Positions 13,651 through 47,869 are shown, counted from the stretch's first letter. The stretch is DNA of 64,000 bases from an uncultured Bacteroidales bacterium (GCA_963846335.1 CAWJVS010000004.1:5769-69768), one strand, 5' to 3'. Notes: generated from the sequence alone by a model not told the origin. Numbers and translations: made by a program.

Positions 13651-15624
13651 ATGAAAAAAAAATCCTGGTTAATCCAAAAGATGACATCATTCTTTTTCGC
13701 GACAATCCTCTTCTTAACACCCAACGTACTGTCAGCTGAAGTGAAACCAAAAGAACGAAACATACTGGCTGGTGAGGCAAAATCAATTGACCTGGCCAGC
13801 ATCCTCGTAAAGGACAACTCCTGGATTAAGATTCCGGATTATAAAAACAGGGTTTTCTGGCAGAACCTGCCGGGCGGAATAAGACAGGAATATTTAACAA
13901 AGGCAGAAGGTTATCTTAAATATGACTGGCCGGTTGTAAAAGCAACTGACTATCTGGAATTTATCCGATCGGGTGACAGGAGGCAGGAAGTATATGCAGC
14001 CTGCAGTGATGCACTGAATTCCCTTGTAATGGGAGAACTGGTTGAGGGAAAAGGGCGGTTCATGGATCAGATAATAAATGCCGTCTGGTACTTTAGTGAA
14101 CAGACCTGGTGGGGATGGTCGGCACACCTTGGACCTCAGAAAGCCGGCGCAGGTCTCCCTGACATAAATGAACCTTTTGTTGATCTCGGGGTCGGGGAAA
14201 TTGCCAGTGACCTTTCATGGACATGGTATCTTTTTCATGAGGAGTTCGATAAGGCACATCCGTTGATATCTGAGAGGCTTAAGCAGGAAATAATGAATAA
14301 AGCGCTTATCCCCTATTTTACAAGGGATGACTTCTGGTATATGGGTTTTAGCGGAGGCCGTCCGAATAACTGGAATCCCTGGATTAACTATAACATGCTG
14401 AATTGTTTCCTCCTGATTGAAACAGATCCTTTAAAAAAGGTGGCGGAGGTGGAGAAAATTATTAATTCGCTCGACAAATTCCTCAATGGGTATTCTGACG
14501 ATGGCGGTTGTGATGAGGGACCCTCCTACTGGGGTGCAGCAGGTGCTCTTCTCTATGAAAGCCTGGAAGTCCTGAAAGATGCTACCGGTGGAGGTTTTGA
14601 TGTCTTCAATGATCAGCTGATCCGGAATATCGGCAAGTACTTTTACAAGGTAAATATTCATGCCCCATACTTCATAAATTTTGCTGATGCTGATGCCACT
14701 ACCATGGGTGATGCATCTGCAGTTTACAGATATGGTAAGGCAATAAATGATCCTGTAATGCAGCAGTTTGGTGCATACCTTGGAAAACTGGGCAAATTCG
14801 GCGATCATTGCATGGACGGAAAGATCTGTGACCAGATTAAAAACCTTACCCTTCTGGACGAAATAAAAAATGCCCAATCAGCAGAGGCTCTTGTAGCTGA
14901 TTTCTGGCTGCCTGATACCGAGGTTGGCGGAGCCCGTGATAAGGAAGGCAGTTTCATGGGATTCTTTTTTGGTGCAAAAGGAGGATTTAATGATGAGAGT
15001 CATAACCATAATGATGTTGGATCATGTGTCATGTATTATGATGGCAATCCATGCATTATTGATTTGGGCCGGGAGGAGTATAATGCAAAAACCTTCAGCC
15101 CCAGGCGTTATGAAATATGGACTATGCAATCAGGGTTTCATAACCTTCCTGTAATCAACGGAACCGATCAGAAGGAGGGGAAGAATTTTAAGGCCATAAA
15201 TTCCACTTTCAGTGCAAATTCAAAAAATGTGACTTTCTCGACTGATATTGCCGGAGCATATACAGCAGAAGCGATGGTTAAAAGCTGGATGAGGACATAT
15301 ACCCTGGTCAGAGGCAGGAGTTTTGCCATAACCGATAAGTTTGAACTGAGCGGACTGAATAAATCAACAACAAGTTCAAATATCATCACATATTGCAAGG
15401 TATCGGAGGTTAAACCTGGTCTTCTCAGATTTGCAGGTAAGGGATTTACTCTTGAGATGAGCTACAGTCACAAAACAGTAAAACCGAAAATTGAGTTCAT
15501 TGAAGTTACTGACAGAACTTTAAAACGTTACTGGCCTGATGGGGTTACACGTGTCAGGCTGGAGTTCATCAATCCGGGGTTGAAAGGGGGACAAACAGTT
15601 ACTTTTACGCCGGCAGATAAATAA
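13651..15624 (+). CDS. secreted heparinase II/III family polysaccharide lyase-like protein
   Basis: signal peptide, NNWNPW, DGGCDEG.SYW, SHNHNDVG, QS..HNLP.ING. Confidence 0.85.
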   Translation: MKKKSWLIQKMTSFFFATILFLTPNVLSAEVKPKERNILAGEAKSIDLASILVKDNSWIKIPDYKNRVFWQNLPGGIRQEYLTKAEGYLKYDWPVVKATDYLEFIRSGDRRQEVYAACSDALNSLVMGELVEGKGRFMDQIINAVWYFSEQTWWGWSAHLGPQKAGAGLPDINEPFVDLGVGEIASDLSWTWYLFHEEFDKAHPLISERLKQEIMNKALIPYFTRDDFWYMGFSGGRPNNWNPWINYNMLNCFLLIETDPLKKVAEVEKIINSLDKFLNGYSDDGGCDEGPSYWGAAGALLYESLEVLKDATGGGFDVFNDQLIRNIGKYFYKVNIHAPYFINFADADATTMGDASAVYRYGKAINDPVMQQFGAYLGKLGKFGDHCMDGKICDQIKNLTLLDEIKNAQSAEALVADFWLPDTEVGGARDKEGSFMGFFFGAKGGFNDESHNHNDVGSCVMYYDGNPCIIDLGREEYNAKTFSPRRYEIWTMQSGFHNLPVINGTDQKEGKNFKAINSTFSANSKNVTFSTDIAGAYTAEAMVKSWMRTYTLVRGRSFAITDKFELSGLNKSTTSSNIITYCKVSEVKPGLLRFAGKGFTLEMSYSHKTVKPKIEFIEVTDRTLKRYWPDGVTRVRLEFINPGLKGGQTVTFTPADK

Positions 15625-15632
15625 AGAATCTT

Positions 15633-17012
15633 ATGAAATACTCTTTTTTTGATTACCTGTTAACAGGTCTTTTACAACTTATTGTGTTCTCAGAGGCAAC
15701 GGCTCAGGTAAAAGTATATCCTGCTCCTCCCGGACTGAGGATAAGCCCTGATTTTACAGTAATGGCAAATAATACCCCAGTGTGGGTGGAACGAATCGGA
15801 AGCGAACTCGAAACATTCGGATATAACCTCTATGGCAGCAGGGAAATGGAGGACCTTAATGTAGCTGACTTCTCCTGTTCAGGAATGGTAACCATCGTGA
15901 TAAAGGCGACCGCAAATATTGATACATTTATTATCCGTCCAAAGAGCCTTAATCTGAAGGCTACGGTAAGCGGACCTGAGATCACCTTCACAATTGATGG
16001 CCCCCGGAAACTATACATTGAAATAAACAATCTGCCCCATCTTGCCATCTTTGCCAATCCCATGGAAGTCAATCCGGCAAAGAAGGGCGACCCCGGAGTA
16101 ATTTACTATGGTGCTGGTGTACATAATCCCGGGCGAATTAATCTGGTCAGCAATATGACTATGTACATAGCGGGAGGAGCTGTCGTAAATGCAGATATCT
16201 TTGGCATGAACCTTGAGAATGTCACAATAAAAGGACCCGGGATTCTCAATGGAAAGATTGAGGCAACAGGCTGTTCAGACTTCAATGTCAGCGGGATCTT
16301 TATACGGAATACAAAAGGATGGACAAACACATTAACAGACTGCCATAACTCCAGCTACCGGAATGTAAAAGTGTTCAGCTACGAAGCCATCTATTCAGTG
16401 GATGGGATTAATCCGGTGTCATGTACAAATTTCACTATCGATGATTGTTTCATGCGCTGCCGTGATGATTGCGTTGCCATCAAATCGGGTGATATGAAAC
16501 TAAAGGTTGACTCCATTTATGTCTCGAACTGTGTTATGGTCGGTTGGGCATGCAGTGATGGAATAACTATCGGTTTTGAACTTAACGGGGGTCCTGTAGA
16601 GAATATTTTCGTTAAAAACTGTGATATCCTGTATGCCCGGGGGGAAGGAAGAACTCAGGGCCACTCGGCTTTCAGCATAGTTTGTGACGGCCCGGCGGAG
16701 GTCCGTAATATATTCTTTGAGGATATAAGAGTGGAAAACCAGGTTGAATTCAAGAATCTCGAATTCATAGTTACAGATGGTACCTTGTACGGAACAGATC
16801 CTCCGGGACATATAAAAGGGGTGTACCTGAAGAATATTCAATGGGAGAATAAAACCAAACCTTTTATTATCAATGGTTATTCACCTGACAATATGGTTGA
16901 AGAAATCATATTTGATAAATGCAGTGTCGGTGGAAAAATCCTCAACAGCGCAGCTGATGCGGATATCAGGACAAACAGGTTTGTGAAGGATCTTAAGTTT
17001 CTCAATTTTTAA
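15633..17012 (+). CDS. secreted beta-helix GH28-like / pectin lyase-fold protein
   Basis: signal peptide ATA-Q, L.IFANP.E, YYG.GVH, DGINP...DDCVAIK, V.NI.F..I repeats. Confidence 0.75.
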   Translation: MKYSFFDYLLTGLLQLIVFSEATAQVKVYPAPPGLRISPDFTVMANNTPVWVERIGSELETFGYNLYGSREMEDLNVADFSCSGMVTIVIKATANIDTFIIRPKSLNLKATVSGPEITFTIDGPRKLYIEINNLPHLAIFANPMEVNPAKKGDPGVIYYGAGVHNPGRINLVSNMTMYIAGGAVVNADIFGMNLENVTIKGPGILNGKIEATGCSDFNVSGIFIRNTKGWTNTLTDCHNSSYRNVKVFSYEAIYSVDGINPVSCTNFTIDDCFMRCRDDCVAIKSGDMKLKVDSIYVSNCVMVGWACSDGITIGFELNGGPVENIFVKNCDILYARGEGRTQGHSAFSIVCDGPAEVRNIFFEDIRVENQVEFKNLEFIVTDGTLYGTDPPGHIKGVYLKNIQWENKTKPFIINGYSPDNMVEEIIFDKCSVGGKILNSAADADIRTNRFVKDLKFLNF

Positions 17013-17075: not shown

Positions 17076-18008
17076 ATGAATAAAAAATTAATCCTGTTTG
17101 CAACTTTTGTTATGGCATGTTTGTTAAACTATGGCCAGAATGTAGGATCATCGCCTGAATACATTAAAGCTCTGACTCCGGAATGGAAAGGTGAACGTTT
17201 TCCTGATGGCAGGCCAAAGGTATCAGATGCCATTCTTGACAGATTGAAAAACATATCCATAGAGGAGGCATGGGGAGTATTGCGAAATAAAGGATTCCAT
17301 AATCAGTATGAAGGTGACTGGATGATAATACATCCGGAAGAAGCAATGACCGGACGTGTTGTTACTGCTCAGTACATGCCGCTCAGACCCGATCTTGAAA
17401 AGTACGTCAAAGAACAGGGGATAAAAGAAAATCGCTCACAAAAGGGAGGAACAAATTCATGGCCTATAGATGCTCTCGTACCAGGTGATGTTTATGTCGC
17501 TGACGGATATGGTAAGATAGCTGATGGCACATTGATCGGGGACAACCTCGGTAATTCAATTTACACAAGGGGACAGAGAGGTGTGATATTCTATGGAGGT
17601 GTAAGGGACGAGGAGGGGTTAGCCGAGATTGAAGGATTCAATGGCTGGATTAAGGGTTCCGATCCTTCATACATTTACCAGATGATGCTCACTTCAATTA
17701 ATGCTCCTATCCGCATTGGACGGGCAATCGTTCTCCCCGGAGATGTTGTACTCGCCAAGAAATACGGAGTTATTTTTATTCCGGCTTATCTGGTTGAAGA
17801 CCTTGTTATTACTGCTGAAGTTACAGCTTTAAGGGATGAATTCGGACATCAGCGTCTCAGAGAGAAGAAATATCTTGCCGGACAGATTGACAGCGAATGG
17901 ACAGAAGAGATAAAAAAGGATTTTCTGAACTGGTTGAACAACTACCCGGGCAAATTACCGATGACCAAAAAGGAACTGGATGATTATATGAAAGAGAGAA
18001 ACTGGTAA
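17076..18008 (+). CDS. RraA-like (HMG/KDG aldolase family) protein with Sec signal peptide
   Basis: GR.VTAQY.P, IGDNL, GGVRD, IRIG...V.PGDVV; N-terminus MNKKLILFATFVMACLLNYG-Q. Confidence 0.8.
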   Translation: MNKKLILFATFVMACLLNYGQNVGSSPEYIKALTPEWKGERFPDGRPKVSDAILDRLKNISIEEAWGVLRNKGFHNQYEGDWMIIHPEEAMTGRVVTAQYMPLRPDLEKYVKEQGIKENRSQKGGTNSWPIDALVPGDVYVADGYGKIADGTLIGDNLGNSIYTRGQRGVIFYGGVRDEEGLAEIEGFNGWIKGSDPSYIYQMMLTSINAPIRIGRAIVLPGDVVLAKKYGVIFIPAYLVEDLVITAEVTALRDEFGHQRLREKKYLAGQIDSEWTEEIKKDFLNWLNNYPGKLPMTKKELDDYMKERNW

Positions 18009-18058: not shown

Positions 18059-19603
18059 ATGAAAAGTATCATAAAAGAGATCGCTGAAAAAAATAGTAAA
18101 CAGGCAGCAGCCAAATCAGAAGCTATCAGAGCTGAGATTGAAAACCCATCAACCGGCAAAAACCGTCGTGACTTTCTTAAAAAGGCAGCCCTCGGAGGCA
18201 TCGCTTTAGGCGGCATGATGCATATGTCGCTTGAAGATACAATAGCCCAGACCACCTCAAAGGTTCAGCGTGCTTCAAGCCCGTCTGACCTGAAAATTAC
18301 GGATATGCGCTACTGCGTATTGCAACTTGATGTAGATGGTTCCCGTAATCCGCTGATCAGGATCGATACAAATCAGGGGATATATGGATTGGGAGAGGTA
18401 AGAGATGCAGCTGACGAAAGATATGCACTTATGCTGAAAAGCCGTATCCTGGGAGAAAATCCATGCAATGTAGAAATGCTCTTCAAGATAATTAAGCAAT
18501 TTGGAAATCACGGACGTCAGGGAGGTGGTGTAAGTGCAGTGGAAATGGCTCTCTGGGATCTGGCAGGAAAAGCATTTGGAGTACCCGTATGGATGATGCT
18601 TGGAGGAAGATACAGGGACAAAGTCAGATTGTATTCCTATATACCTGTACATAACTGGGCCAGTATAGATGAGGCAAAGTTCAGGGCAGACGTAAAACAA
18701 CGCCTTGAAGTTCAGGGATATACATGGCTTAAATTCTATCCCAGCATCGAAAACATAAGCCATATACCAGGGATAACGGTAAACTCGAAGTTCTGGTCAG
18801 CCCCAAAATACACTGACATAACATCCTATAATAAAACGAAACAACCGTTTACACAGATTCAGTTTACCGATAAAGGTCTTGCTGAAATGGCAAAATACGT
18901 GGAATTTGTGCGCAGTGTTGTGGGTTATGAAGTTCCTCTTTCAGCTGATGGATTCGGTAATTATGATTTAAACAATTGCATCAGGGTGGGTCGGGCTCTG
19001 GATCCCTATAGATTAGCATGGTTTGAAGATATGCTTTCCTGGGAAATGACCGATCAATGCAAGGTATTGACTGACTCTGTTGAAACGCCTACTATTACAG
19101 GAGAAGATATTTATCTGAAGGAAGAATTCATTAAGATCTGTGACAGACATACTGTTGATCTGATACACCCGGATCTTCATACAGCGGGTGGAATCTTAGA
19201 AACCAAGAAAATTGGTGATTATGCCGAAGAAAAAGCAGTTGCTATGGCCATGCATTGTTCAAGCACCCCGGTAGGATTTATGGCAAGTGTGCACTGTGCA
19301 GCTGCCACACAAAACTTCCTCGCACTGGAAATGACAACACAGGCAGTGGATAACGTCTGGTGGGCTAACCTGGTTAAAACCACCGATGGCAGGAAGTTAG
19401 CTGAAAAAGGGTTTGCAAATGTACCTGAAACTGCACCCGGTTTAGGGATAGAATTAAACGAGGATGAAGTCAAAAAACACCTCTTCCCTACCGACAAGAG
19501 TTTTTTTGCTCCAACTCCTGAATGGAATGATAAGCGGTCAAGTGATCACCTCTGGAGCGGCAGGTTTACAATAGGGCAAAAAACAGGTATTGTACCCAAA
19601 TAA
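18059..19603 (+). CDS. mandelate racemase/MLE enolase-superfamily enzyme (copy 1), Tat-like signal
   Basis: RRDFLKK plus hydrophobic stretch, IRIDTNQG.YG.GE, SAVEMALWDLAGK, WFED, TGED, PDL, PGLGIELNE. Confidence 0.9.
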   Translation: MKSIIKEIAEKNSKQAAAKSEAIRAEIENPSTGKNRRDFLKKAALGGIALGGMMHMSLEDTIAQTTSKVQRASSPSDLKITDMRYCVLQLDVDGSRNPLIRIDTNQGIYGLGEVRDAADERYALMLKSRILGENPCNVEMLFKIIKQFGNHGRQGGGVSAVEMALWDLAGKAFGVPVWMMLGGRYRDKVRLYSYIPVHNWASIDEAKFRADVKQRLEVQGYTWLKFYPSIENISHIPGITVNSKFWSAPKYTDITSYNKTKQPFTQIQFTDKGLAEMAKYVEFVRSVVGYEVPLSADGFGNYDLNNCIRVGRALDPYRLAWFEDMLSWEMTDQCKVLTDSVETPTITGEDIYLKEEFIKICDRHTVDLIHPDLHTAGGILETKKIGDYAEEKAVAMAMHCSSTPVGFMASVHCAAATQNFLALEMTTQAVDNVWWANLVKTTDGRKLAEKGFANVPETAPGLGIELNEDEVKKHLFPTDKSFFAPTPEWNDKRSSDHLWSGRFTIGQKTGIVPK

Positions 19604-19662: not shown

Positions 19663-21033
19663 ATGGGAAAAAACTATTCAAGACGTGAATTTTTAAAGCA
19701 AAATTCGTTAAAAGGACTCGGTGCAGTTGTCTCATTAGGGGTTACACCTGCACTCTATTCTCCTGACATTAGAAATGCGCATACCCTTGCATTGCAGGGG
19801 GGACAGCCTGTAAGGACGAAAGGATGGCCTGCCTGGCCTGTCTGGGATTCAGCATCTGATGAGGATCTTGTTTTAAAGGTTCTTCGCAGCGGTGCATGGA
19901 CCCGCGCAGGAGTGGTTACCGAATTCGAAAATAAATGGGCAGAAACGATTGGCACCAAACGTTGTCTGGCTGTCGTTAACGGGACAAATGCACTTATTGC
20001 ATCACTTAACCAGTTTGATATTGGAGCGGGAGATGAAGTGATTATACATCCGTATACATTCATCTCGACAATAATATGTATCCTTCAGAATGGTGCAATG
20101 CCCGTGTTTGTAGATACTGATCCGGAGACATTTCAGATTGATGCTGACAAAATTGAAGCTAAAATCACCAGGCGAACCAGGGCGATACTCCCTGCCCATA
20201 CACTTGGAATGCCGGCCGATATGGAGAACATTATGCAAATTGCTGCAAAACATGATCTTATAGTTGTTGAGAATTGTTGTCTTGCAGCATTGGCTGAGAT
20301 AAATCACAGGAAAGTGGGAACGTTCGGCAATGCAGGGTGTTTCAGTTTCCAGGCTTCAAAAACTATTCCTATGGGAGAAGGTGGAGCAATCGTAAGCGAT
20401 GATGATAAATTCATTGACAGATGTTATTCTTACCATAACTGCGGAAATCCTTACGGCTCTGTTTCCCTGCCAAATGGTGTAACAGGAGGAACAGTTCTTA
20501 ATGCCACCAAATTAAGAATATCGGAATATCAGGCAGCTATCGGACTCGCCCAGTTAAAACGATTGGAAATGCAGACCGATATACGCAATGAGAATGCTCA
20601 TTATCTTAAATCGAAGATAGAGGATATCCCCGGGATTGTCCCATTTAAGCTGACCAAGAATGTTACAAAGATCTCTGCCTGGCAGTTTGCGCTCAGGTAT
20701 AAAAAGGAGGCGTTTCAGGATTTGCCAAGAGACGGTTTTCTTAAAGCTCTTCGCGCAGAGGGAATACCATGTTCATCAGGATATGTAACCCAAAATGATA
20801 AGCCTTACCTGAAGAATGCCTTTGAATCGAAAAATTTCCGTAAGATGTATCCTGCGAAGATGTTGGATTTTAACAGATTTGTCGCAAAGAATTTTTGCCC
20901 GGAGAATAATCTCCTCTGTGAGGAGGCGGTTTGGTTTTCTCAGAATATGCTTCTTGGATCCAAATCAGATATGGATGATATAGCTGATGCAATTGAAAAA
21001 GTTCATGCTAATGCAGGTAAATTAATAAAATAA
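19663..21033 (+). CDS. DegT/DnrJ/EryC1/StrS PLP enzyme (copy 1), Tat signal
   Basis: SRREFLK, NGT.AL, GDEVI, FSFQASK, GEGG. Confidence 0.9.
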   Translation: MGKNYSRREFLKQNSLKGLGAVVSLGVTPALYSPDIRNAHTLALQGGQPVRTKGWPAWPVWDSASDEDLVLKVLRSGAWTRAGVVTEFENKWAETIGTKRCLAVVNGTNALIASLNQFDIGAGDEVIIHPYTFISTIICILQNGAMPVFVDTDPETFQIDADKIEAKITRRTRAILPAHTLGMPADMENIMQIAAKHDLIVVENCCLAALAEINHRKVGTFGNAGCFSFQASKTIPMGEGGAIVSDDDKFIDRCYSYHNCGNPYGSVSLPNGVTGGTVLNATKLRISEYQAAIGLAQLKRLEMQTDIRNENAHYLKSKIEDIPGIVPFKLTKNVTKISAWQFALRYKKEAFQDLPRDGFLKALRAEGIPCSSGYVTQNDKPYLKNAFESKNFRKMYPAKMLDFNRFVAKNFCPENNLLCEEAVWFSQNMLLGSKSDMDDIADAIEKVHANAGKLIK

Positions 21034-26169: not shown

Positions 26170-26255
26170 GATATTGCATCAGGTATCCTGCTGTATCAGA
26201 TTCAGGTAACAATTTAATGATTCGAAATTAAAAATCAAACAGATAAAATTTAAAG

Positions 26256-41775: not shown

Positions 41776-42681
41776 ATGGCAGAAAAAGCAATGGGTGATC
41801 CTGAAGAAGTTGTCATTGAAAGACCAGTATCCGGCAAGCCACACAAAGGAAAAGTTCTCCTCGCAATTCAGGCACATTCAGATGATGTTCCGCTTGACTA
41901 TGGAGGTACGGTTGCCAAACTTATGGATGAAGGTTATACAGGTTATCTTCTTCGCACTTCTGATGATAGCAGTGGTGATTATGAGGGGAATAAACAGGAT
42001 AGTGCAAATATTGCCAGATTCTACGGGATGGAAAAGGCTTATGATTTTCTGTACCCTCACCACCGGATGGACAGTATTCAGATCCAGGATTTTAAGGCAG
42101 GATGATTTTCCTTTTCAGACTCCTGAAGGTGGATACGATAATTAGTTATGACCCATGGGAACATTATGAAGAGAATCCCGACCATATCGCGACGGCTCAG
42201 GCCGTGGAAGCGGCCAGATGGATGGCCGAGATGGATACCGATTATCCTGAACATCTGGATGCAGGGCTTTCACCTTATGGTCCGGGTGAATGTTATTATT
42301 TCTCAAGGGTTCCTCAAAGGGTCAATAGAGTTGTTGATATAAGTAATTACATTGATAAGAAAGGTTGAAGTCAACATGTTAAATGTAACAAAGGGACCTG
42401 CCGGAAGGGTGAAGGAAAAAGAATAATGGAGCAGCTTGGCCAGAGAAGGCAAGCAATTGCCTCTTCTTGGAAATGATGAAAAGACGGCCAATTTCAATTA
42501 TGTGAAATATGTCGTATTCGGGATAGATACACAGCGATTATATACCTTTTTTCCAACTGTATCAAACAGGGAATTAGGTGAGCAGTATGGACTGGAATGG
42601 GCAGAACGATATCATTATATCAATGATGAGACACCAGATAAAACAGAAGATTATATTAAAAAGCATGCCATTCCTCTGTAA
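41776..42681 (+). CDS. PIG-L/LmbE family de-N-acylase (copy 3, no signal peptide), about 3 frameshifts
   Basis: AHSDD, ENPDH; ORFs 41776-42105, 42102-42368 and 42436-42681 are collinear with copies 1 and 2. Confidence 0.8.
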
Positions 42682-42748: not shown

Positions 42749-43735
42749 ATGAAACGGAAAGAATTTCTTCAGAAAGGTTTAGCTGCCAGCGCGTTGGCAG
42801 GATCGTCTGCCCTGGCCTTCACATCAGATGGAGCTGATCAGAATGATCAGAATCAAAAAGTGCCCTGGGGATATGATGTCGATTATGATGAAGTCAAAAT
42901 TGAAAGGGCGGTAAGCGGGAAACCACATAAGGGCAAAGTGCTCCTTGCAATTCAGCCTCACTCGGATGATATCCCGCTTTCTGCCGGTGGGTTAGTTGCC
43001 AAACTGATGGATGAAGGATATACTGGTTATTTATGCTCTGTATCCGATGACTCCAGGGGAGAAGGCGAATATGCCCAGAACAGAATAGACAATCAAAAAA
43101 TAGCTGACTTTTATGGAATGAAAGGCTCATTTGAATTACTGATGCCTCACCATCAAATGGACAGTGTCAATATTCAGGATCTCAAACAAAGATTCATTTT
43201 TCTGTTCAGATTCTTAAAAGTAGACACAATTGTATGCATGGATCCATGGGGCCATTACGAAGAAAATCCTGATCATTACGTGACCGGTTTGGCTGCTGAA
43301 GCAGCCAGGTGGATTGCAGGGGCGAATGACTATCCGGAACACTTTGCAGCAGGAATTGGCCCCTACGTCCCGAAAGAGAGGTACTATTATTCAAGAGCCA
43401 AGCAGACCAACAACCTAATTGTTGACATAAGTGATTACATTGATAAGAAAATAGAAGTAAACCTGCTGAATGCTGCAAAGGGACCTGCAGGAAATAACGG
43501 AGTAAAACTGAGGGAGAAACTTGCCAGAGAGGGAAAACGATTGCCGATCCTGGATGGAGATGACCACACGGCCAATTTCAATTATGCCAAGAATTTTCTC
43601 TTCAGCAGGAATAAAAAGCTTGGGGAAAAGTATGGACTGAAGTATGCTGAAGGATTTCACTATATGACTGATATACGATTACCAAACGAATCCCCGCTGG
43701 ATGAATATATAAAAAAGAATTCTTTACCTTTATAA
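42749..43735 (+). CDS. PIG-L/LmbE family de-N-acylase (copy 4, Tat-like signal)
   Basis: MKRKEFLQKG; PHSDD, ENPDH. Confidence 0.85.
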   Translation: MKRKEFLQKGLAASALAGSSALAFTSDGADQNDQNQKVPWGYDVDYDEVKIERAVSGKPHKGKVLLAIQPHSDDIPLSAGGLVAKLMDEGYTGYLCSVSDDSRGEGEYAQNRIDNQKIADFYGMKGSFELLMPHHQMDSVNIQDLKQRFIFLFRFLKVDTIVCMDPWGHYEENPDHYVTGLAAEAARWIAGANDYPEHFAAGIGPYVPKERYYYSRAKQTNNLIVDISDYIDKKIEVNLLNAAKGPAGNNGVKLREKLAREGKRLPILDGDDHTANFNYAKNFLFSRNKKLGEKYGLKYAEGFHYMTDIRLPNESPLDEYIKKNSLPL

Positions 43736-43796
43736 TCAGTCCTCACCTGGCAGGTAAATCATTTGAAAAGCATATTATAAATCAAATCTTAAGGCT

Positions 43797-45173
43797 ATGT
43801 CGAAAAGGAATTATTCAAGACGTGAATTTGTAAAACAAAATTCAATGGCTGGACTTGGTGCAGCCGTCGCAATGGGCATGGCACCAAATCTGCTGTCCGA
43901 TTATGTTTCAGATGCAGGCCTCCCTGCGATACTTGGAGGTCAGAAGATCAGGACAAAGGAATGGCCGGTATGGCCACAGTGGAAACCTGAAGCATATGAG
44001 GAACAGGTCCTTAAAGTCCTCAGAAGTGGCGTATGGTCACGTGCAAAAGTTGTTACCGAATTCGAAAATAAGTGGGCTGAAACGATTGGTACAAAGAGAT
44101 GTCTTGCAGTGGTCAACGGAACCAACGCATTGGTAACTACTGTTGTACAGCTGGACATTGGGGCAGGTGACGAAGTAATCGTTACTCCCTATACGTGGAT
44201 TTCCAGCATCCAGGCTGTGCTTATAGCCGGAGCAATGCCGGTATTTGCCGATGTGGATCCGGAAACTTACCAGATCGATCCTGCTAAAATTGAGGCCAAA
44301 ATCACATCGCGAACGAGGGCCATTATGCCTGTCCATATCCTCGGACTGCCTGCCGATATGGTAAAAATAATGGAGATAGCTAAAAAGCATAAACTCCTGG
44401 TAATAGAAGATTCCTGCCAGGCCTGGCTGGCTGAAATAGATCATAAGAAAGTAGGGACCTTTGGCAATGCAGGCTGTTTCAGTTTTCAGACTTCGAAACA
44501 TTTACCACTGGGAGAAGGGGGTGCTATAGTAAGCGATGATTCTGAATTAATTGACAGATGCTATTCCTATCATAATGTGGGTTTTCCTCATGGTGCAGTA
44601 ATCGGGGCAGTTGGTGCCGGGTCAGTCATGCTAGGCACTAAACTCCGCATTACTGAATATCAGGCTGCTGTCGGACTGGCACAGTTAGGAGTGCTCGACC
44701 AGCAGACCACTCTTCGAAATACAAATGCTGCCTACCTGAGGTCTCAGATAAAAGATATCCCCGGAATAAAACCATATAAACTTTATGAGAATGTAACGAG
44801 AGCAGCTTTCCATATGTTTGCCTTCCGTTATAAAAAGGAAGAATTCAAGGGTCTGACAAGGGATATGTTTCTTAAAGCTCTCACCGAAGAAGGAATTCCT
44901 AATTTAAGCGGATATGCACCATATCTGAATAAGCAACCTTACCTTCAGAATGCCTTCCAATCGAAAAATTTTAAAAGGATGTATCCGAAGGAAATGCTTG
45001 ATTTTGATAAATTTCAACAGGAAAATGCATGTCCCGAAAATGATGAATTATGCGCTGAGGCAGTCTGGCTTCAGCAAAATATGCTGCTGGCTGAAAAATC
45101 TGATCTGGATGATATTGCCTCTGCCATAGAAAGAATACGTAAGAATGCTGAAAAGATAAAGAACCTGAAATAG
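43797..45173 (+). CDS. DegT/DnrJ/EryC1/StrS PLP aminotransferase (copy 3), Tat signal
   Basis: SRREFVK, PVHILG, IEDSCQAW, FSFQTSK, GEGG. Confidence 0.9.
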   Translation: MSKRNYSRREFVKQNSMAGLGAAVAMGMAPNLLSDYVSDAGLPAILGGQKIRTKEWPVWPQWKPEAYEEQVLKVLRSGVWSRAKVVTEFENKWAETIGTKRCLAVVNGTNALVTTVVQLDIGAGDEVIVTPYTWISSIQAVLIAGAMPVFADVDPETYQIDPAKIEAKITSRTRAIMPVHILGLPADMVKIMEIAKKHKLLVIEDSCQAWLAEIDHKKVGTFGNAGCFSFQTSKHLPLGEGGAIVSDDSELIDRCYSYHNVGFPHGAVIGAVGAGSVMLGTKLRITEYQAAVGLAQLGVLDQQTTLRNTNAAYLRSQIKDIPGIKPYKLYENVTRAAFHMFAFRYKKEEFKGLTRDMFLKALTEEGIPNLSGYAPYLNKQPYLQNAFQSKNFKRMYPKEMLDFDKFQQENACPENDELCAEAVWLQQNMLLAEKSDLDDIASAIERIRKNAEKIKNLK

Positions 45174-45269
45174 TTGGTTTTATACAGAAAAATATCTTGA
45201 AAATCACATTTCCTTTTAAAAAACACAATAAACAGTTATGATAAGTACTCATCTATAAAATCAGTAATT

Positions 45270-46280
45270 ATGAAACGTAAAGAATTTTTTCAAAAAGGCC
45301 TGGCAACAAGTGCCCTTTTAGGATCTTCTGCATGGATCTCCGCTGCAGATGAAGTTCCACAGAATGATCAGAATAAAAAAACTCCATGGGGATATGATGT
45401 CAATTATGATGAGGTCAGAATTGAAAGAGATATGCCGGGGCAACCACATAAAGGTAAGGTGCTTCTGGCAATTCAGCCTCACTCAGATGATATTCCGCTT
45501 TCTGCAGGAGGATTGGTCGCAAAACTGCTGGCCGAAGGGTATACAGGATATCTCTGCTCAGTATCGGATGATTCCAGGGGATCGGGGACGTATGCCCAGA
45601 ACAGGCTTGACAATAAAAAGATAGCTGAGTATTATGGCATGAAAGGTTCGTTTGAATTACTGATGCCACATCATCAGATGGACAGCGTCGGCATTCAGGA
45701 TTTGAAACAAAGATTCATTTTTCTGATCAGAACCCTGAAAGTTGATACAATTGTCTCTATGGATCCGTGGGGTCATTATGAAGAAAATCCTGATCATTAC
45801 GTAACCGGTCGGGCTGTGGAAGCAGCAAGGTGGATCGCCGGGAATCAGGATTATCCGGAACATTTTGCAGCTGGATTCGGGCCCTATACGCCAAGAGAGA
45901 GATATTATTATTCAAGGGCCGGACAGACCAACAATCTGATTGTGGATATCAGCAGCTATATTGATAAGAAAATCGAAGTAAATATGCTGAATATCGCAAA
46001 GGGACCAGCCGGAAATAATGGGGTATTGCTCAGAGAAAGACTTGCCAAAGAGGGCAAAAAATTGCCTATGCTTGAAGGTGACGACTACAAAGCCAATTTC
46101 AATTATGCCAAAGAATTTGTCTTTACCCGCGAGAAAAAACTTGGTGCAAAGTATGGTTTGGGATGGGCTGAAGCATACCACTATATGAGTGAAATTCCAT
46201 TCGATAATTATACACAAAAAGGAACAAAGCCAGTAAATCCCGCTGTTGAGGACTATATAAAGAAAAATGCCCTTGCCTAA
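45270..46280 (+). CDS. PIG-L/LmbE family de-N-acylase (copy 5, Tat-like signal)
   Basis: MKRKEFFQKG; PHSDD, ENPDH; closest to copy 4. Confidence 0.85.
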   Translation: MKRKEFFQKGLATSALLGSSAWISAADEVPQNDQNKKTPWGYDVNYDEVRIERDMPGQPHKGKVLLAIQPHSDDIPLSAGGLVAKLLAEGYTGYLCSVSDDSRGSGTYAQNRLDNKKIAEYYGMKGSFELLMPHHQMDSVGIQDLKQRFIFLIRTLKVDTIVSMDPWGHYEENPDHYVTGRAVEAARWIAGNQDYPEHFAAGFGPYTPRERYYYSRAGQTNNLIVDISSYIDKKIEVNMLNIAKGPAGNNGVLLRERLAKEGKKLPMLEGDDYKANFNYAKEFVFTREKKLGAKYGLGWAEAYHYMSEIPFDNYTQKGTKPVNPAVEDYIKKNALA

Positions 46281-46380
46281 ATAGTTACTGGCAAGAATAA
46301 AAATGAACAGCCTGATTCTCCATCCTGCTCATACTGAGCCGGTAATATCTTTGACATTATAACCGAAATAATAGCAGTTT

Positions 46381-47869
46381 ATGAAAAGATTTTTACAACA
46401 TATTGCTGAATATAACAGGAAGCAGGAGGCCGCCGAAGCAGAAGCTATGAGGACTGAAATTGAAAATCCTTCGACAGGCAAAAACCGCCGTGAATTTCTT
46501 AAAAAGGCAGCTCTGGGAGGCATCGCGTTAGGCGGCATGATGCATATGTCACTGGAAGATACTATAGCCCAGACCACCTCGAAGGTTCAGCGTGCTTCAA
46601 ATCCGTCTGACCTGAAAATCACGGATCTTCGCTATGCTTTAACTACGATCCTTGGTGGTACAGCTATCATACGCATTGATACAAACCAGGGTATCTATGG
46701 ACTGGGAGAGGTGAGAGACGGAGCGGATCCTCGTTATGCTCTTATGCTTAAAAGCCGGATCCTTGGTCTTAATCCTTGCAATGTTGAGATGATCTTCAAG
46801 ATAATAAGGCAATATGGGCATCACGGACGGCAGGGAGGCGGAGTATGCGGAGTGGAAATGGCCCTGTGGGATCTGTGCGGCAAGGCATATGGAGTACCTG
46901 CATGGCAGCTCCTTGGCGGAAGGTATCGTAACAAAATAAGATTGTATGCGGATACCCCAACGCATGATTCTCCTGAGGAGCAGCTGAAACTGATCAGATT
47001 CAGAACTGAGGACCAGGGATATACATGGCTTAAGATGGATGTTTCAATTGAGGAGATCAGAAAAATACCAGAAACTCTTGTGAACACAAAATTCTGGGAT
47101 GGAGCACAGGGTCAGTATGATATGAGAGATTATATGTCATACGGAAACACAAAACATCCTTTCACACAGATACAGATCACGGATAAAGGTCTGGATGAAC
47201 TCGCAAAAATAGTGGATCGTGTGCGCAATATGGTAGGGTATGAAATACCAATTTCCACTGACCATTACGGCCATTTCGATCTGAACAATGGCATCCGGCT
47301 GGGTAAAGCCCTTGAGAAATACAGACTGGCATGGATGGAGGATATTGTCTCATGGGAACTGACTGACCAGTGGAAGACACTCTCTGATGCGCTGGAAACA
47401 CCTATGCTTACCGGTGAAGATATTTATCTTCTGAATGGATTTAAACCGCTGATAGATACCCATGCCGTTGACATTGTTCATCCTGATCTGTCTACCTCCG
47501 GTGGCCTGTCTAGAGACGAAGAGAATTGGTGATTATGCTGAAGAACACGGTATTGCAATGGCGATGCACCAGGCCGGTACTCCAGTATCATTCATGGCGA
47601 ATGTGCATTGTGCCGCTGCAACACAGAATTTCCTTGCACTTGAACATCATAGTGTTGACCTTCCCTGGTGGGAAAGCCTTGTTAAGATGACAGGCAGCCA
47701 GCCAATGATTACGAAAGGATATGCCAATCTGCCACTTGATGCACCTGGTCTTGGAATCGAACTGAACGAGGAGGTTGTGAAACAGCATCTGAGTCCGAAA
47801 GACAAAGGATTCTTCGAACCCACCCCTGAGTGGAATGAAAAACGTTCACATGACAGGCTCTGGAGTTAG
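46381..47869 (+). CDS. enolase-superfamily enzyme (copy 3), Tat-like signal; frameshift near 47508
   Basis: NRREFLKK, WLKMD, TDHYGH, WMED, TGED, PDL, ALEHH, PGLGIELNE. Confidence 0.88.

What the first reader, a model, noticed from the sequence alone, without database searches (positions are those of the whole stretch)
13651..47869. Candidate new system: SusCD-fed periplasmic disassembly line for N-acylated amino sugars
Seen: 34 kb and 23 genes, all but one co-directional, centred on susCD. Only three are polymer-cleaving candidates (heparinase II/III-like, GH28-like, beta-helix). The rest are 5 PIG-L de-N-acylases, 3 DegT PLP enzymes, 3 enolase-superfamily enzymes, an RraA-like aldolase, Gfo/Idh/MocA, 2 esterases, an amidohydrolase, a nitrilase and a D-aminopeptidase. 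All but two PIG-L copies carry Tat-like, Sec or lipoprotein signals. There is no glycosyltransferase, nucleotidyltransferase, kinase, inner-membrane transporter or regulator. Known: DegT enzymes are normally cytoplasmic and biosynthetic, and Gfo/Idh/MocA + DegT + N-acyltransferase (WbpB/WbpE/WbpD) build 2,3-diacetamido-uronates of O-antigens. Inference: this locus runs that logic backwards outside the cytoplasm (import, O-deacylate, N-deacylate, transaminate to keto sugar, redox, dehydrate, aldol-cleave). It would scavenge rare amino sugars of bacterial surface glycans or aminocyclitol/aminoglycoside-type compounds for C and N.
Basis: partly seen in the sequence, partly recalled or inferred. 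Interest (0 to 1): 0.85.

Follow-up and report, generated by a model that had tools for sequence, protein, structure and literature searches.

The report
Composite periplasmic amino-sugar-acid utilisation locus
This is a real Bacteroidota nutrient-uptake gene cluster packed with exported deacetylases, dehydratase-like enzymes and aminotransferases, but it is a mosaic of at least two separately conserved modules, and it probably breaks down N-acetylated amino-sugar acids outside the cytoplasm.

Summary
There are 23 genes at 13651-47869 and 22 are co-directional. Export leaders are present on 21 of the 23 products and are conserved in homologues.

Six genes are frame-broken in this assembly. Genes outside the locus are broken too. 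Relatives' contigs carry 1-base indels at the break sites, so these are most likely assembly errors.

- Near 56 Tat-DegT homologues I found no PIG-L, enolase-type or RraA-like gene.
- Near PIG-L homologues the steady partner is the Tat-exported enolase-superfamily gene (16 of 19 well-flanked loci), then RraA-like and SusC/SusD. DegT appeared in 1 of 19.
- DegT3 is a 1.44-kb indel, absent from a 90-92% identical contig.

Related loci add a KDG-kinase-like gene, a DgoT-like transporter and an acetate importer. In two other loci an exported DgaE-like ammonia lyase sits where the enolase-type gene would be.

Best reading: a SusCD-fed periplasmic route of deacetylation, α,β-elimination and aldol cleavage acting on N-acetyl amino-sugar acids. 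Separate DegT/amidase modules are co-located with it. No step has biochemical support and the substrate is unknown.

The parts
13651..15624 (+). Heparinase II/III-like protein with a Sec leader. Candidate lyase for a uronate-containing glycan.
   Evidence: Pfam Hepar_II_III_C, E 2.9e-8, above cut-off. Hydrophobic leader. No NCBIfam match.
15633..17012 (+). GH28-like beta-helix hydrolase with a Sec leader.
   Evidence: Pfam Glyco_hydro_28, E 1.4e-10. A 61% homologue lies near a PIG-L in L100.
17076..18008 (+). Secreted or lipoprotein RraA-like protein. Candidate class II pyruvate aldolase.
   Evidence: Pfam RraA-like, E 1.6e-17. G-x-x-R-D motif in 10 of 10 homologues. Homologues lie next to PIG-L in L067, L068, L095, L102-104, L108 and L146.
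18059..19603 (+). Tat-leader enolase-superfamily protein 1 (intact, 514 aa). Acid-sugar-dehydratase-like.
   Evidence: Pfam MR_MLE_N and MR_MLE_C. NCBIfam TAT_signal_seq hit, and best functional matches GalD/ManD, below cut-off. Invariant K225, D297, E323, E349, D372 and H399.
19663..21033 (+). Tat-leader DegT aminotransferase 1.
   Evidence: Pfam DegT, E 8.6e-88. SRREFLK leader.
21037..23286 (+). Secreted two-domain alpha/beta-hydrolase esterase 1.
   Evidence: Pfam Abhydrolase_7, AXE1 and others. Paralogues sit beside another DegT at C30:70-76 kb of the own genome.
23306..24739 (+). Gfo/Idh/MocA oxidoreductase with an R-K-K-F leader and a lipobox.
   Evidence: Pfam GFO_IDH_MocA domains. Best NCBIfam hit is BT_2158-family glycoside 3-dehydrogenase, E 1.5e-31, far below cut-off.
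24736..26169 (+). Secreted right-handed beta-helix protein. Candidate depolymerase.
   Evidence: Pfam Beta_helix, E 3.2e-8.
26247..28534 (+). Esterase 2, a paralogue of esterase 1, in three frame pieces.
   Evidence: Stop-to-stop ORFs 26247-26633, 26569-28089 and 28052-28534. Pfam AXE1 and others on the middle piece. 73% identical to esterase 1.
28583..29501 (+). Tat-lipoprotein Amidohydro_2 protein, in frame pieces.
   Evidence: Pfam Amidohydro_2, E 4e-15. NRRKFF leader plus LAGC lipobox. Pieces listed. The intact homologue is 310-312 aa.
29491..30880 (+). Tat-leader DegT aminotransferase 2, with its C-terminal end in another frame.
   Evidence: Pfam DegT, E 1.7e-83.
30920..31954 (+). Tat-leader carbon-nitrogen hydrolase (nitrilase superfamily amidase).
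   Evidence: Pfam CN_hydrolase, E 2.5e-21. 68-74% homologues lie upstream of SusC in L109 and L110. It is also next to DegT paralogues at C7 and C30 of the own genome.
32024..33040 (-). Secreted M55 (DppA-type) peptidase, the only minus-strand gene.
   Evidence: Pfam Peptidase_M55, E 5.6e-55. Found in 8 of 56 DegT loci and between PIG-L and the enolase-type gene in L064.
33288..36476 (+). SusC-type TonB-dependent transporter.
   Evidence: Pfam CarbopepD_reg_2, Plug and TonB_dep_Rec_b-barrel. 84% homologue in the syntenic L109.
36494..38020 (+). SusD-like lipoprotein.
   Evidence: Pfam SusD-like_2, E 4.4e-77. 84% homologue in L109.
38165..39710 (+). Tat-leader enolase-superfamily protein 2, with one frame break near 39117.
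   Evidence: Pfam N domain on 38165-39160 and C domain on 39090-39710. One X1 contig lacks one base at 39117. The L109 orthologue is intact at 513 aa.
39726..40640 (+). PIG-L/LmbE (CE14) deacetylase a, without a leader.
   Evidence: Pfam PIG-L. No leader. The 87% homologue in L109 has a KRKEF leader.
40689..41732 (+). PIG-L deacetylase b, with a KRKEF Tat-like leader.
   Evidence: Pfam PIG-L. Leader.
41776..42681 (+). PIG-L deacetylase c, without a leader, in three or more frame pieces.
   Evidence: Pieces. Matches to PIGL_e. Relatives' contigs insert a C at 42099 or 42102 and carry indels at 42359 and 42404. Leaderless intact homologues occur in L062 and L105.
42749..43735 (+). PIG-L deacetylase d, with a KRKEF leader.
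   Evidence: Pfam PIG-L. 96% homologue in L088.
43797..45173 (+). Tat-leader DegT aminotransferase 3, an insertion within the PIG-L array.
   Evidence: Pfam DegT, E 1.5e-93. PLP lysine 234 conserved in 120 of 120. L088 joins window 43769 to 45213 without this gene.
45270..46280 (+). PIG-L deacetylase e, with a KRKEF leader.
   Evidence: Pfam PIG-L, E 6.5e-12. HSDD and NPDH motifs.
46381..47869 (+). Tat-leader enolase-superfamily protein 3, with one frame break near 47510.
   Evidence: MR_MLE_C profile positions 25-134 on the first piece and 135-219 on the second. One X2 contig lacks one base at 47510.

Best explanation
The stretch is a genuine polysaccharide-utilisation-type locus of an uncultured Bacteroidales-like bacterium. 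It is a mosaic of modules whose products work in the periplasm or on the outer membrane.

**Module 1, the conserved core.** It comprises SusC/SusD, several PIG-L (CE14) zinc deacetylases, Tat-exported enolase-superfamily enzymes of the acid-sugar-dehydratase type, and a secreted RraA-like aldolase, often with a Tat-exported CN hydrolase.

Proposed chemistry (inferred, not shown):
1. An imported N-acetylated amino-sugar acid, or an oligomer ending in one, is de-N-acetylated by PIG-L.
2. The free 2-amino acid undergoes alpha-proton abstraction and beta-elimination by the enolase-type enzyme. This gives a 2-keto-3-deoxy sugar acid plus ammonia.
3. That product is either split by the RraA-like aldolase or imported and phosphorylated, as the related loci suggest.

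**Module 2.** This is a separately conserved set: Tat-DegT aminotransferase, Amidohydro_2, CN hydrolase, M55 peptidase, large esterases and Tat-Gfo/Idh/MocA. It probably removes other N- and O-acyl groups and interconverts amino and keto groups on free, non-nucleotide sugars or cyclitols.

**Candidate depolymerases.** The Hepar II/III-like, GH28-like and beta-helix proteins would cut an acidic glycan first.

**Frame breaks.** The frameshifts are most likely assembly errors.
For: **Shown.**
- Families and leaders are as listed. The leaders are conserved in homologues.
- PIG-L pairs with an enolase-type gene. An enolase-superfamily gene lies within 6 kb in 16 of 19 PIG-L loci that have at least 1.7 kb on both sides (13 of 19 at 40% identity or more). 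RraA-like is in 5 of 19, SusC in 5 of 19 and SusD in 4 of 19.
- Gene orders: L109 reads CNh-SusC-SusD-enolase-PIG-L-PIG-L at about 80% nucleotide identity to window 31061-41539. L102-104 and L108 read SusC-SusD-PIG-L-RraA-enolase.
- L104 adds more genes: a PfkB kinase whose best matches are KDG/KDGal kinases (E 1.8e-81, below cut-off), a D-galactonate-transporter-type MFS (E 4.6e-82, below cut-off), an acetate uptake transporter (260.7 bits against a cut-off of 50), two YhcH/NanQ-like proteins, LacI, and an ECF sigma factor with FecR.
- In a Latescibacterota genome and in contig L131, a Tat-leader DgaE-family PLP ammonia lyase sits beside PIG-L where the enolase-type gene would be. It scores E 1.2e-41, below cut-off. 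In the first case an RraA-like gene (49% identity) is also present.
- The enolase family keeps invariant K225, D297, E323, E349, D372 and H399. PIG-L keeps HSDD and NPDH in 116 of 120. RraA-like keeps R-D in 10 of 10.
- DegT module: its neighbours are Ceramidase_alk 13, Amidohydro_2 9, Gfo 7 and M55 6 among 126 neighbour proteins. Second and third copies of the module lie at C30 and C7 of the own genome.
- The frame breaks coincide with 1-base indels in relatives' contigs, and a gene outside the locus is split in three.
- TatA is present three times in the genome.

**Inferred.** The substrate class, the direction of each step and the roles of residues. The roles are recalled from mandelate-racemase-type enzymes, MshB and HMG/CHA aldolase.
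Against: - No enzyme here has been assayed. No NCBIfam equivalog reaches its cut-off for any of the 10 locus proteins scanned.
- The window itself has no importer or kinase for the proposed 2-keto-3-deoxy product. That part rests on related contigs at 54-75% identity.
- The DgaE-for-enolase replacement rests on two loci.
- Enolase-superfamily enzymes are not known to me to deaminate 2-amino aldonates.
- Uronate-type substrates fit the candidate depolymerases equally well, and they would also end in KDG.
- TatC was not found in the genome, which is 75% complete.
- The PIG-L leader has R-K rather than R-R, so Sec export is possible.
- Two PIG-L copies have no leader.
- This PIG-L type was found in 0 of 400 other genomes of the class at E <= 1e-20. 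The core is therefore rare among sequenced species.
Confidence: 0.55

Rival explanations
1. This is one dedicated disassembly line that runs WbpB/WbpE/WbpD logic backwards on rare 2,3-diacetamido or 3-/4-amino sugars, or on aminoglycosides. PIG-L deacylates, DegT turns the freed amine into a ketone, and redox, dehydration and aldol cleavage follow.
For: - All the needed families sit side by side with export leaders.
- The nearest solved relatives of DegT act on free aminocyclitol precursors.
- Gfo/Idh/MocA recurs beside DegT in 11 of 56 loci.
- Matching 'longest contig' lengths in the search listings hint that a few close relatives hold DegT together with PIG-L (47,638 bases) or with the enolase-type gene (87,711 bases). 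I could not fetch those contigs.
Against: - PIG-L, enolase-type and RraA-like genes were each found in 0 of 56 DegT loci.
- DegT was found in 1 of 29 PIG-L loci of 6 kb or more.
- PIG-L is absent from 4 of 5 DegT-bearing genomes.
- DegT3 is a 1.44-kb indel missing from L088.
- L062, L063, L064/L065 and L086 also show PIG-L arrays without DegT.
Confidence: 0.15
2. The locus scavenges peptide-like or D-amino-acid material, such as peptidoglycan stem peptides or N-acyl-D-amino acids, rather than sugars. On this view the enolase-type enzymes are racemases or epimerases. M55, Amidohydro_2, CN hydrolase and PIG-L are amidases, and DegT disposes of the amines.
For: - M55 is the DppA D-aminopeptidase family.
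- Source annotations call the enolase homologues 'L-alanine-DL-glutamate epimerase-like'.
- The own genome has a periplasmic set of D-aminoacylase-type amidohydrolases, DgaE-like lyases and RidA at C2.
Against: - The best functional matches of the enolase-type proteins are galactonate, gluconate and mannonate dehydratases, and their best solved matches are dehydratase-like.
- Related loci carry a KDG-kinase-like gene and a galactonate-transporter-like MFS.
- The window carries GH28-like and heparinase-like genes.
- PIG-L is a carbohydrate esterase family. Its nearest solved members are diacetylchitobiose and GlcNAc-malate deacetylases.
Confidence: 0.1
3. The locus is decaying. The six frameshifts are real and the cluster is no longer functional in this organism.
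For: Six of 23 genes are split. The break sites are not long homopolymers in most cases.
Against: - Splits occur at a similar rate outside the locus. The aldo/keto reductase at 2404-3404 lies in three pieces that cover profile positions 1-72, 75-151 and 153-289. Further split-looking ORF runs are listed.
- Contigs of relatives from four runs carry 1-base indels at 39117, 42099/42102, 42359 with 42404, and 47510. By my arithmetic on ORF phases, the first three cases restore the frame.
- The L109 orthologue of enolase 2 is intact.
Confidence: 0.08
4. The exported DegT, Gfo and amidase enzymes remodel the cell's own envelope glycans or lipids in the periplasm and are not catabolic.
For: DegT and Gfo/Idh/MocA pairs are classically biosynthetic (recalled). 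Ceramidase-like amidases are the commonest DegT neighbours.
Against: - They sit in SusC/SusD loci with esterases and candidate depolymerases.
- No glycosyltransferase or nucleotidyltransferase family is among the 25 commonest neighbour families.
- The copies are multiple and variable from genome to genome.
Confidence: 0.05

Closest known systems
Oxidative chitin (GlcNAc1A) pathway of Pseudoalteromonas: OngOT, OngA, OngB, OngC, OngD and KdgK (PMC9537276; passages read)
   Same: The logic matches: TonB-dependent uptake, de-N-acetylation of an N-acetyl amino-sugar acid, deamination to 2-keto-3-deoxygluconate, then KDG kinase. Acetate and ammonia are released. L104 has a KDG-kinase-like gene and an acetate importer.
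   Different: OngB is a D-aminoacylase-type amidohydrolase and OngC is a PLP D-amino-acid deaminase, and both are cytoplasmic. Here the deacetylase is PIG-L/CE14 and the eliminating enzyme belongs to the enolase superfamily (or is DgaE-like), all with export leaders. There is no GH20 gene in the window. The substrate here is unproven.
Periplasmic 3-keto-glycoside route of Bacteroides thetaiotaomicron, BT2156-BT2160, with Tat-exported Gfo/Idh/MocA BT2158 (PMC8121099; passages read)
   Same: It is a precedent for cofactor-bearing sugar-modifying enzymes being exported by Tat in Bacteroidota, and for glycan breakdown by non-hydrolytic chemistry in the periplasm. The best NCBIfam hit of the window Gfo protein is the BT_2158 family.
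   Different: The match is far below cut-off (109.5 against 750 bits). That route has no aminotransferase, PIG-L or enolase-superfamily enzyme.
DgaE/DgaF D-glucosaminate route of Salmonella (recalled; the family names come from NCBIfam)
   Same: An ammonia lyase acts on a 2-amino-2-deoxy sugar acid and an aldolase follows. DgaE-like genes lie beside PIG-L and RraA-like in L146 and L131.
   Different: DgaE acts on the 6-phosphate in the cytoplasm. The homologues here are distant (142.8 against 385.3 bits) and carry Tat leaders. The window itself has enolase-type genes instead.
L-glutamine:2-deoxy-scyllo-inosose / scyllo-inosose aminotransferases (PDB 5w71, 2c7t, 5w70, 7b0d)
   Same: These are the best solved relatives of DegT3 (E 1e-56 to 4e-54, aligned over residues 50-447). 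The PLP lysine is conserved. They act on substrates without a nucleotide handle.
   Different: They are cytoplasmic and biosynthetic, for aminoglycosides. The window proteins carry Tat leaders and sit among amidases and esterases. The donor and acceptor are unknown.
WbpB/WbpE/WbpD steps of UDP-2,3-diacetamido-uronate synthesis
   Same: A Gfo/Idh/MocA oxidoreductase occurs together with a DegT aminotransferase. WbpE appears among the solved relatives at E 8e-42.
   Different: WbpE is a weaker match than the inosose aminotransferases. There is no acetyltransferase here and no UDP-sugar context.
Non-phosphorylative sugar-acid routes: enolase-superfamily dehydratase plus pyruvate aldolase (general knowledge)
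   Same: A dehydratase-like enolase-superfamily enzyme with invariant metal ligands lies next to an aldolase-type protein.
   Different: The known examples are cytoplasmic and use HpcH/DHDPS-type aldolases. Here both partners are exported and the aldolase candidate is RraA-like.

Membership tests
Polysaccharide utilisation locus (PUL) | Adjacent SusC-type TonB-dependent transporter and SusD-like lipoprotein | tested here: met
   Pfam Plug, TonB barrel and CarbopepD_reg_2 at 33288-36476. SusD-like_2 at 36494-38020, with an LSSC lipobox.
Polysaccharide utilisation locus (PUL) | Linked sensor or regulator (HTCS, ECF sigma with anti-sigma, or SusR) | tested here: not met
   None among the 23 genes. 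The related locus L104 has an ECF sigma factor, FecR and LacI.
PIG-L / LmbE (CE14) deacetylases | Pfam PF02585 above its gathering score | tested here: met
   44.5-52.2 bits against a cut-off of 28.2 for the four intact copies. The broken fifth copy does not score on its own.
PIG-L / LmbE (CE14) deacetylases | Zinc and catalytic motifs H-x-D-D and H-P-D-H (motif roles recalled from MshB) | tested here: inconclusive
   HSDD is invariant. The second motif reads N-P-D-H, with Asn in place of the first His. Both motifs occur in 116 of 120 homologues. The consequence for activity is unknown.
Enolase superfamily, acid-sugar dehydratases | MR_MLE N and C domains, plus a conserved Asp/Glu/Glu metal triad and acid/base residues | tested here: met
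   Pfam. D297, E323, E349, K225, D372 and H399 are invariant in 25 sequences. The roles are assigned from the alignment to 2qq6 and from recall.
Enolase superfamily, acid-sugar dehydratases | Reaches a curated equivalog (GalD, ManD, and so on) | tested here: not met
   The best hit is galactonate dehydratase at 173 bits against a cut-off of 311. The nearest solved structure, 2qq6, has no stated function.
DegT/DnrJ/EryC1/StrS aminotransferases | Pfam PF01041 and the PLP-binding lysine | tested here: met
   281-314 bits. Lys234 of DegT3 is conserved in 120 of 120 homologues. The aligned motif is SK in all three window copies.
NDP-sugar aminotransferases (PseC, ArnB, WecE, LegC, DesI) | Reaches the curated equivalog score | tested here: not met
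   The best hit is PseC at 194.5 against 423.5. All others are lower relative to their cut-offs. Use of a nucleotide sugar cannot be tested with these tools.
Tat substrates | Twin-arginine motif followed by a mildly hydrophobic stretch | tested here: met
   RRx[FIL] is present on 3 enolase-type proteins, 3 DegT, Amidohydro_2 and CN hydrolase. It is conserved in 119 of 119 DegT and 113 of 114 enolase-type homologues. PIG-L has R-K in 108 of 113, but R-R in L131, L146, L062, L064 and L065. No SignalP or TatFind was available.
Tat substrates | Tat machinery encoded in the genome | tested here: inconclusive
   There are three TatA/B/E matches above cut-off. No TatC match was found in a 75%-complete genome.
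RraA-like / HMG-CHA class II aldolases | Pfam PF03737 and the conserved Arg-Asp pair (role recalled) | tested here: met
   64.6 bits against a cut-off of 24.5. G-x-x-R-D in 10 of 10. Aldolase equivalogs are not reached: 56 bits against cut-offs of 179 and 304.
   DegT on one side and PIG-L with the enolase-type gene on the other recur separately.

The most novel reading that the evidence does not exclude
Two undescribed kinds of periplasmic sugar chemistry are encoded here.

1. A complete extracytoplasmic route takes N-acetyl amino-sugar acids to 2-keto-3-deoxy acids or pyruvate. It uses a Tat-exported CE14 deacetylase, a Tat-exported enolase-superfamily 'deaminating dehydratase' (interchangeable with an exported DgaE-like PLP lyase) and a secreted RraA-type aldolase.
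2. A large family of Tat-exported PLP aminotransferases turns amino groups of free amino sugars or aminocyclitols into ketones. This would be an amine-based counterpart of the glycoside 3-dehydrogenase route and would open such residues to elimination or cleavage.
Probability: 0.22. Interest if true: 0.8.

Novelty: new variant of a known kind. Interest (0 to 1): 0.6.

Why it matters
Amino sugars and their acids make up a large share of the organic nitrogen in bacterial necromass, chitin oxidation products and surface glycans. Their breakdown in Bacteroidota is known mainly through hydrolases and cytoplasmic steps.

Three large protein families with conserved export leaders have no assigned function here:
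- Tat-DegT: 6451 of the 8000 scored candidates at E <= 1e-30.
- Tat-enolase-type: all 8000 scored candidates at E <= 1e-30.
- Leader-bearing PIG-L: 5968 of 8000 scored candidates at E <= 1e-10.

If they do act in the periplasm, that would add PLP transamination, enolase-type elimination and aldol cleavage to the chemistry known outside the cytoplasm. It would also give testable entry points in cultured strains. Homologues of the enolase-type protein are named from Adhaeribacter aquaticus and Negadavirga shengliensis. A DegT locus lies in Catalinimonas sp. 4WD22.

In the full-text searches I found no paper describing these combinations. Subscription journals and supplementary files were not searchable.

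Tried and rejected

**Literature.**
- Searches returned nothing on exported DegT or on PIG-L with enolase-type genes in PULs.
- One search was wasted, because the word-start term 'susc' matched 'susceptibility'.

**Expression.** No RNA holder was listed, so nothing can be said about expression.

**Runs holding the stretch.** All runs held only small shares of it (0.11 or less). I used them only for indels, not for habitat.

**Class-wide search.** The search for this PIG-L type found 0 of 400 other genomes at E <= 1e-20. It therefore gave no loci, and I turned to metagenome contigs.

**TatC.** Not found in the own genome, which is 75% complete.

**Homopolymers.** I tested whether homopolymers explain the frameshifts. 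Most break windows hold no long run, so this was not decisive.

**ESM Atlas.** A search on the unknown lipoprotein that follows DegT in 21 of 56 loci gave only leads (SSL_N, and an SMP-30/gluconolactonase-like cluster at rank 24).

**Not run.**
- Structure prediction, fold search and the complex job. I make no binding claim. The idea that leaderless PIG-L copies ride out with leader-bearing paralogues is untested.
- The profile search of protein representatives.
- A family tree of DegT against characterised enzymes, because the sequences of solved chains could not be fetched.

**Considered and rejected.**
- Foreign origin of the locus. G+C is 0.41-0.45 throughout the locus, within the 0.40-0.46 range of the flanks.
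- Recent tandem duplication. The paralogues are only 60-78% identical.

**Limits of the counts.**
- required tblastn E <= 1e-10 and one segment covering at least 40% or 30% of the query. Distant family members can be missed.
- In one search I passed the first 126 of 184 neighbour ORFs (loci L001-L031, proteins over 900 aa dropped). Only the 25 commonest of 101 families were shown.
- The cluster counts include the window as one 'locus'.

Full report
**What is there.** The window is contig C4:5769-69768 of a 3.72-Mb, 37-contig, 75%-complete genome. Between 13651 and 47869 lie 23 genes, and all but the M55 peptidase are on the plus strand.

- Hepar_II_III_C, GH28, RraA-like
- three MR_MLE (enolase superfamily)
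- three DegT
- two large alpha/beta-hydrolase esterases
- Gfo/Idh/MocA, Beta_helix, Amidohydro_2, CN_hydrolase, Peptidase_M55
- a SusC-type receptor and a SusD-like protein
- four intact PIG-L, plus a fifth in pieces that matches PIGL_e at 48-62% identity

None of the 10 locus proteins scanned against NCBIfam reaches a curated functional cut-off. G+C is 0.41-0.45 across the locus, within the 0.40-0.46 range of its flanks.

**Broken genes.** Six of the 23 genes are split between frames: esterase 2, Amidohydro_2, DegT2, enolase 2, PIG-L c and enolase 3. This is not special to the locus.
- The aldo/keto reductase at 2404-3404 lies in three pieces that cover profile positions 1-72, 75-151 and 153-289.
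- Other split-looking runs of ORFs appear in both flanks.

I laid contigs of four public runs on 38100-47900. They showed single-base indels in relatives at these places:
- 39117, one base left out, one contig of X1;
- 42099, a C put in, two contigs of X1 and one of X5;
- 42102, a C put in, one contig of X3;
- 42359 and 42404, one contig of X5;
- 47510, one base left out, one contig of X2.

Those are the places where enolase 2, PIG-L c and enolase 3 change frame. By ORF phase, the changes at 39117, 42099/42102 and 47510 would restore one frame. The contigs are short, of low depth and from relatives, so they show that relatives are intact, not what this population carries. The L109 orthologue of enolase 2 is an intact 513-aa ORF. 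I read the breaks as assembly indels, with a small chance that they are real.

**Export leaders.** A simple scan gave the following.
- RRx[F/I/L] motifs followed by a mildly hydrophobic stretch are on the three enolase-type proteins, the three DegT, Amidohydro_2 (which also has a lipobox) and the CN hydrolase. On the enolase-type proteins the motif comes after a 35-aa charged N-terminal region.
- K-R-K-E-F-L-Q-K-G is on three PIG-L.
- R-K-K-F plus a lipobox is on Gfo/Idh/MocA.
- The remaining proteins have strongly hydrophobic Sec or lipoprotein leaders.
- PIG-L a and PIG-L c have no leader.
- Seven presumed cytoplasmic window proteins showed no RR or RK motif.

The leaders are conserved. The RR type is in 119 of 119 DegT homologues of at least 430 aa and in 113 of 114 enolase-type homologues of at least 490 aa. 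The R-K type is in 108 of 113 PIG-L homologues of at least 320 aa, with one further RR. More distant PIG-L carry a true R-R: L131, the Latescibacterota copy, and L062, L064 and L065. This supports a Tat origin for the R-K leader.

The genome has three TatA/B/E genes. TatC was not found, but the genome is 75% complete. No dedicated signal predictor was available.

**Is the set conserved together? No.** I fetched 56 genome loci around homologues of DegT3. Most are Bacteroidales, Prolixibacteraceae, Chitinophagaceae and Sphingobacteriia MAGs. There is one isolate, Catalinimonas sp. 4WD22, plus Latescibacterota, Opitutaceae and Lentisphaerae.

With window proteins as tblastn queries, PIG-L, the enolase-type gene and RraA-like were each found in 0 of 56 loci. 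Gfo/Idh/MocA was in 11, Amidohydro_2 in 8, M55 in 8, SusC in 8, the esterase in 6 and CN hydrolase in 2.

De novo clustering of neighbours showed these recurrent partners:
- an unknown lipoprotein directly downstream of DegT, in 21 loci;
- ceramidase-like proteins (PF04734), in 19 and 10 loci for two clusters;
- two kinds of Amidohydro_2;
- Tat-Gfo/Idh/MocA;
- M55.

A Pfam census of 126 immediate neighbours gave Ceramidase_alk 13, Amidohydro_2 9, Gfo 7 and M55 6. No PIG-L, MR_MLE, RraA or glycan-biosynthesis family was among the 25 families shown. The 126 were the first of 184 candidates and came from loci L001-L031.

The own genome holds further copies of this DegT module. One is at C30:70-80 kb, with three esterases, CN hydrolase, Amidohydro_2 and an 81% identical DegT. 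Another is at C7, with DegT next to CN hydrolases.

**The PIG-L side.** This PIG-L type was found in 0 of 400 other genomes of the class at E <= 1e-20, but it is common in metagenomes. Around 80 metagenome loci, the steady partner is the Tat-enolase-type gene.
- Among the 29 loci of 6 kb or more: enolase-type 17, SusC 7, SusD 7, RraA-like 6, CN hydrolase 3, DegT 1.
- Among the 19 loci with at least 1.7 kb on both sides of the PIG-L block: an enolase-superfamily gene within 6 kb in 16 (13 at 40% identity or more), RraA-like 5, SusC 5, SusD 4, DegT 1. That one DegT is 35% identical and on the other strand.

Gene orders are telling.
- L109 reads CN hydrolase-SusC-SusD-enolase-PIG-L-PIG-L and aligns at about 80% nucleotide identity to window 31061-41539.
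- L102-104 and L108 read SusC-SusD-PIG-L-RraA-enolase.
- L062, L063, L064/65 and L086 show PIG-L arrays without DegT.
- L088 is 90-92% identical in nucleotides. It joins window 43769 to 45213, so the 1.44 kb holding DegT3 is absent there.

Of five whole genomes that carry Tat-DegT, four lack this PIG-L type at E <= 1e-10. The locus is therefore a mosaic. It has a SusCD/PIG-L/enolase/RraA core (roughly 30920-47869 plus 17076-19603) and DegT/amidase/esterase modules (roughly 19663-33040, plus the DegT3 insertion).

**What the core probably does.** The enolase-type family keeps D297, E323 and E349, which align with the metal ligands of solved relatives. It also keeps K225, D372 and H399. Its best functional matches are galactonate, gluconate and mannonate dehydratases, all below cut-off. 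PIG-L keeps HSDD and N-P-D-H. Its nearest solved relatives are BC1534, diacetylchitobiose deacetylases and BshB. The RraA-like proteins keep the Arg-Asp pair in 10 of 10.

The fuller locus L104 adds several genes:
- a kinase whose best matches are KDG/KDGal kinases;
- a D-galactonate-transporter-type MFS;
- an acetate uptake transporter, above cut-off;
- two YhcH/NanQ-like proteins, a family that NCBIfam names for N-acetylneuraminate anomerase;
- LacI;
- an ECF sigma factor with FecR.

In a Latescibacterota genome, two RR-leader PIG-L genes lie next to a Tat-lipoprotein of the DgaE family and an RraA-like gene of 49% identity. The DgaE-family match is to D-glucosaminate-6-phosphate ammonia lyase relatives at E 1.2e-41, below cut-off. 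In contig L131, a Tat DgaE-like gene lies directly upstream of an RR-leader PIG-L.

An enolase-type enzyme and a DgaE-type enzyme can both remove the proton next to a carboxylate and eliminate the neighbouring hydroxyl. Finding one or the other beside PIG-L points to a 2-amino-2-deoxy sugar acid as the deacetylated intermediate.

The chain I propose is as follows.
1. The substrate is taken up by SusCD.
2. PIG-L removes the N-acetyl group, and the acetate is taken up.
3. Elimination and deamination give a 2-keto-3-deoxy acid.
4. The RraA-like enzyme splits that product, or it is imported and phosphorylated.

This mirrors the published OngB/OngC/KdgK route for oxidised chitin, with unrelated and exported enzymes (PMC9537276, passages read). 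Every step is inference. Amino-uronic acids are an equally open substrate class. They would suit the heparinase-like and GH28-like genes at the head of the window locus, and they too would lead to KDG-type products.

**What the DegT module probably does.** The PLP lysine is conserved in 120 of 120 homologues, so these are transaminases and not the histidine-type dehydratases of the family (that distinction is recalled). The four best solved relatives are L-glutamine:(2-deoxy-)scyllo-inosose aminotransferases, at 187-196 bits. Next come a DegT of unnamed function and a Kdo-8-amine transaminase (167-168 bits), then perosamine synthetases and AHBA synthase.

CN hydrolase recurs next to DegT in the own genome. 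That might reflect hydrolysis of 2-oxoglutaramate formed from glutamine, or removal of an amide from the substrate. I cannot tell which. The partners are mostly amide hydrolases, which fits removal of varied N-acyl groups.

Tat export of a Gfo/Idh/MocA enzyme in Bacteroides, and periplasmic oxidation of glycosides, are in print (PMC8121099, passages read). I found nothing in print on exported DegT enzymes.

**Verdict.**
- The single 'disassembly line' is not supported as a conserved unit, but the general idea survives. That idea is exported enzymes taking N-acylated amino sugars apart without glycosyltransferases or nucleotide sugars.
- The most solid new point is the pairing of leader-bearing PIG-L with a Tat-exported enolase-superfamily enzyme inside SusCD loci, together with RraA-like proteins.
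- The second point is a very large family of Tat-leader DegT aminotransferases with amidase partners.
- Both lack any assigned function, and both could be tested in cultured relatives.

Noticed in passing
own genome C2:42001-60000 (locus L147): There is a second periplasmic-looking set outside the window. It holds four secreted Amidohydro_1/3 (D-aminoacylase-type) proteins, two DgaE-like PLP enzymes with RR leaders, a RidA (Ribonuc_L-PSP) with an RR-type leader, an S15 peptidase-like protein and two DUF362 proteins. Family by family it parallels OngB/OngC/OngD, but with export leaders.
   Followed up: partly
L012:11455-12837 and 20 other DegT loci: An unknown lipoprotein of about 460 aa lies directly downstream of Tat-DegT in 21 of 56 loci. 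Pfam gives only a weak SSL_N hit. The Atlas points to SSL_N clusters and, at rank 24, an SMP-30/gluconolactonase-like cluster. It is absent from the window.
   Followed up: partly
DegT loci L004-L046; own genome C30:99.6-105.9 kb and C17:121.6-128.9 kb: Neutral/alkaline-ceramidase-like proteins (PF04734) are the commonest annotated neighbours of Tat-DegT. They also lie near other DegT paralogues of the own genome. There is none in the window.
   Followed up: partly
window 1-13000 and 54000-58000: Many genes outside the locus are split between frames. Examples are the aldo/keto reductase at 2404-3404 in three pieces, the aldolase/short-chain dehydrogenase region at 4717-6629, and 54062-55468. 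The assembly as a whole seems to be rich in indels.
   Followed up: partly
window 47909-53749 (minus strand): Directly after the locus lie several genes on the minus strand: a PGDH_C/NAD-binding protein, a leaderless Gfo/Idh/MocA-like ORF (not Pfam-tested), a xylose-isomerase-like TIM barrel, an Apiosidase-like (DUF4038) protein with a leader, and a sugar/ureide-permease-type membrane protein. They may be a cytoplasmic continuation of sugar processing.
   Followed up: no
window 10983-13574 (minus strand): A secreted 863-aa protein diverges from the first gene of the locus. It has only weak GH38 C-terminal domain matches.
   Followed up: no
window 39726-40640 compared with L109:8296-9336 and L113: The make-up of the PIG-L array varies between relatives. 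The 87% homologue of leaderless PIG-L a has a full KRKEF leader in L109. In L113, PIG-L b follows the enolase-type gene directly, with no PIG-L a. Leaderless copies recur in L062 and L105.
   Followed up: partly
window 18059-19603, 38165, 46381 (N-termini): The enolase-type proteins carry a conserved, charged stretch of about 35 aa before the twin-arginine motif. It is also seen in L075, L082, L083, L102-104, L109, L113 and L116. Its role is unknown.
   Followed up: no
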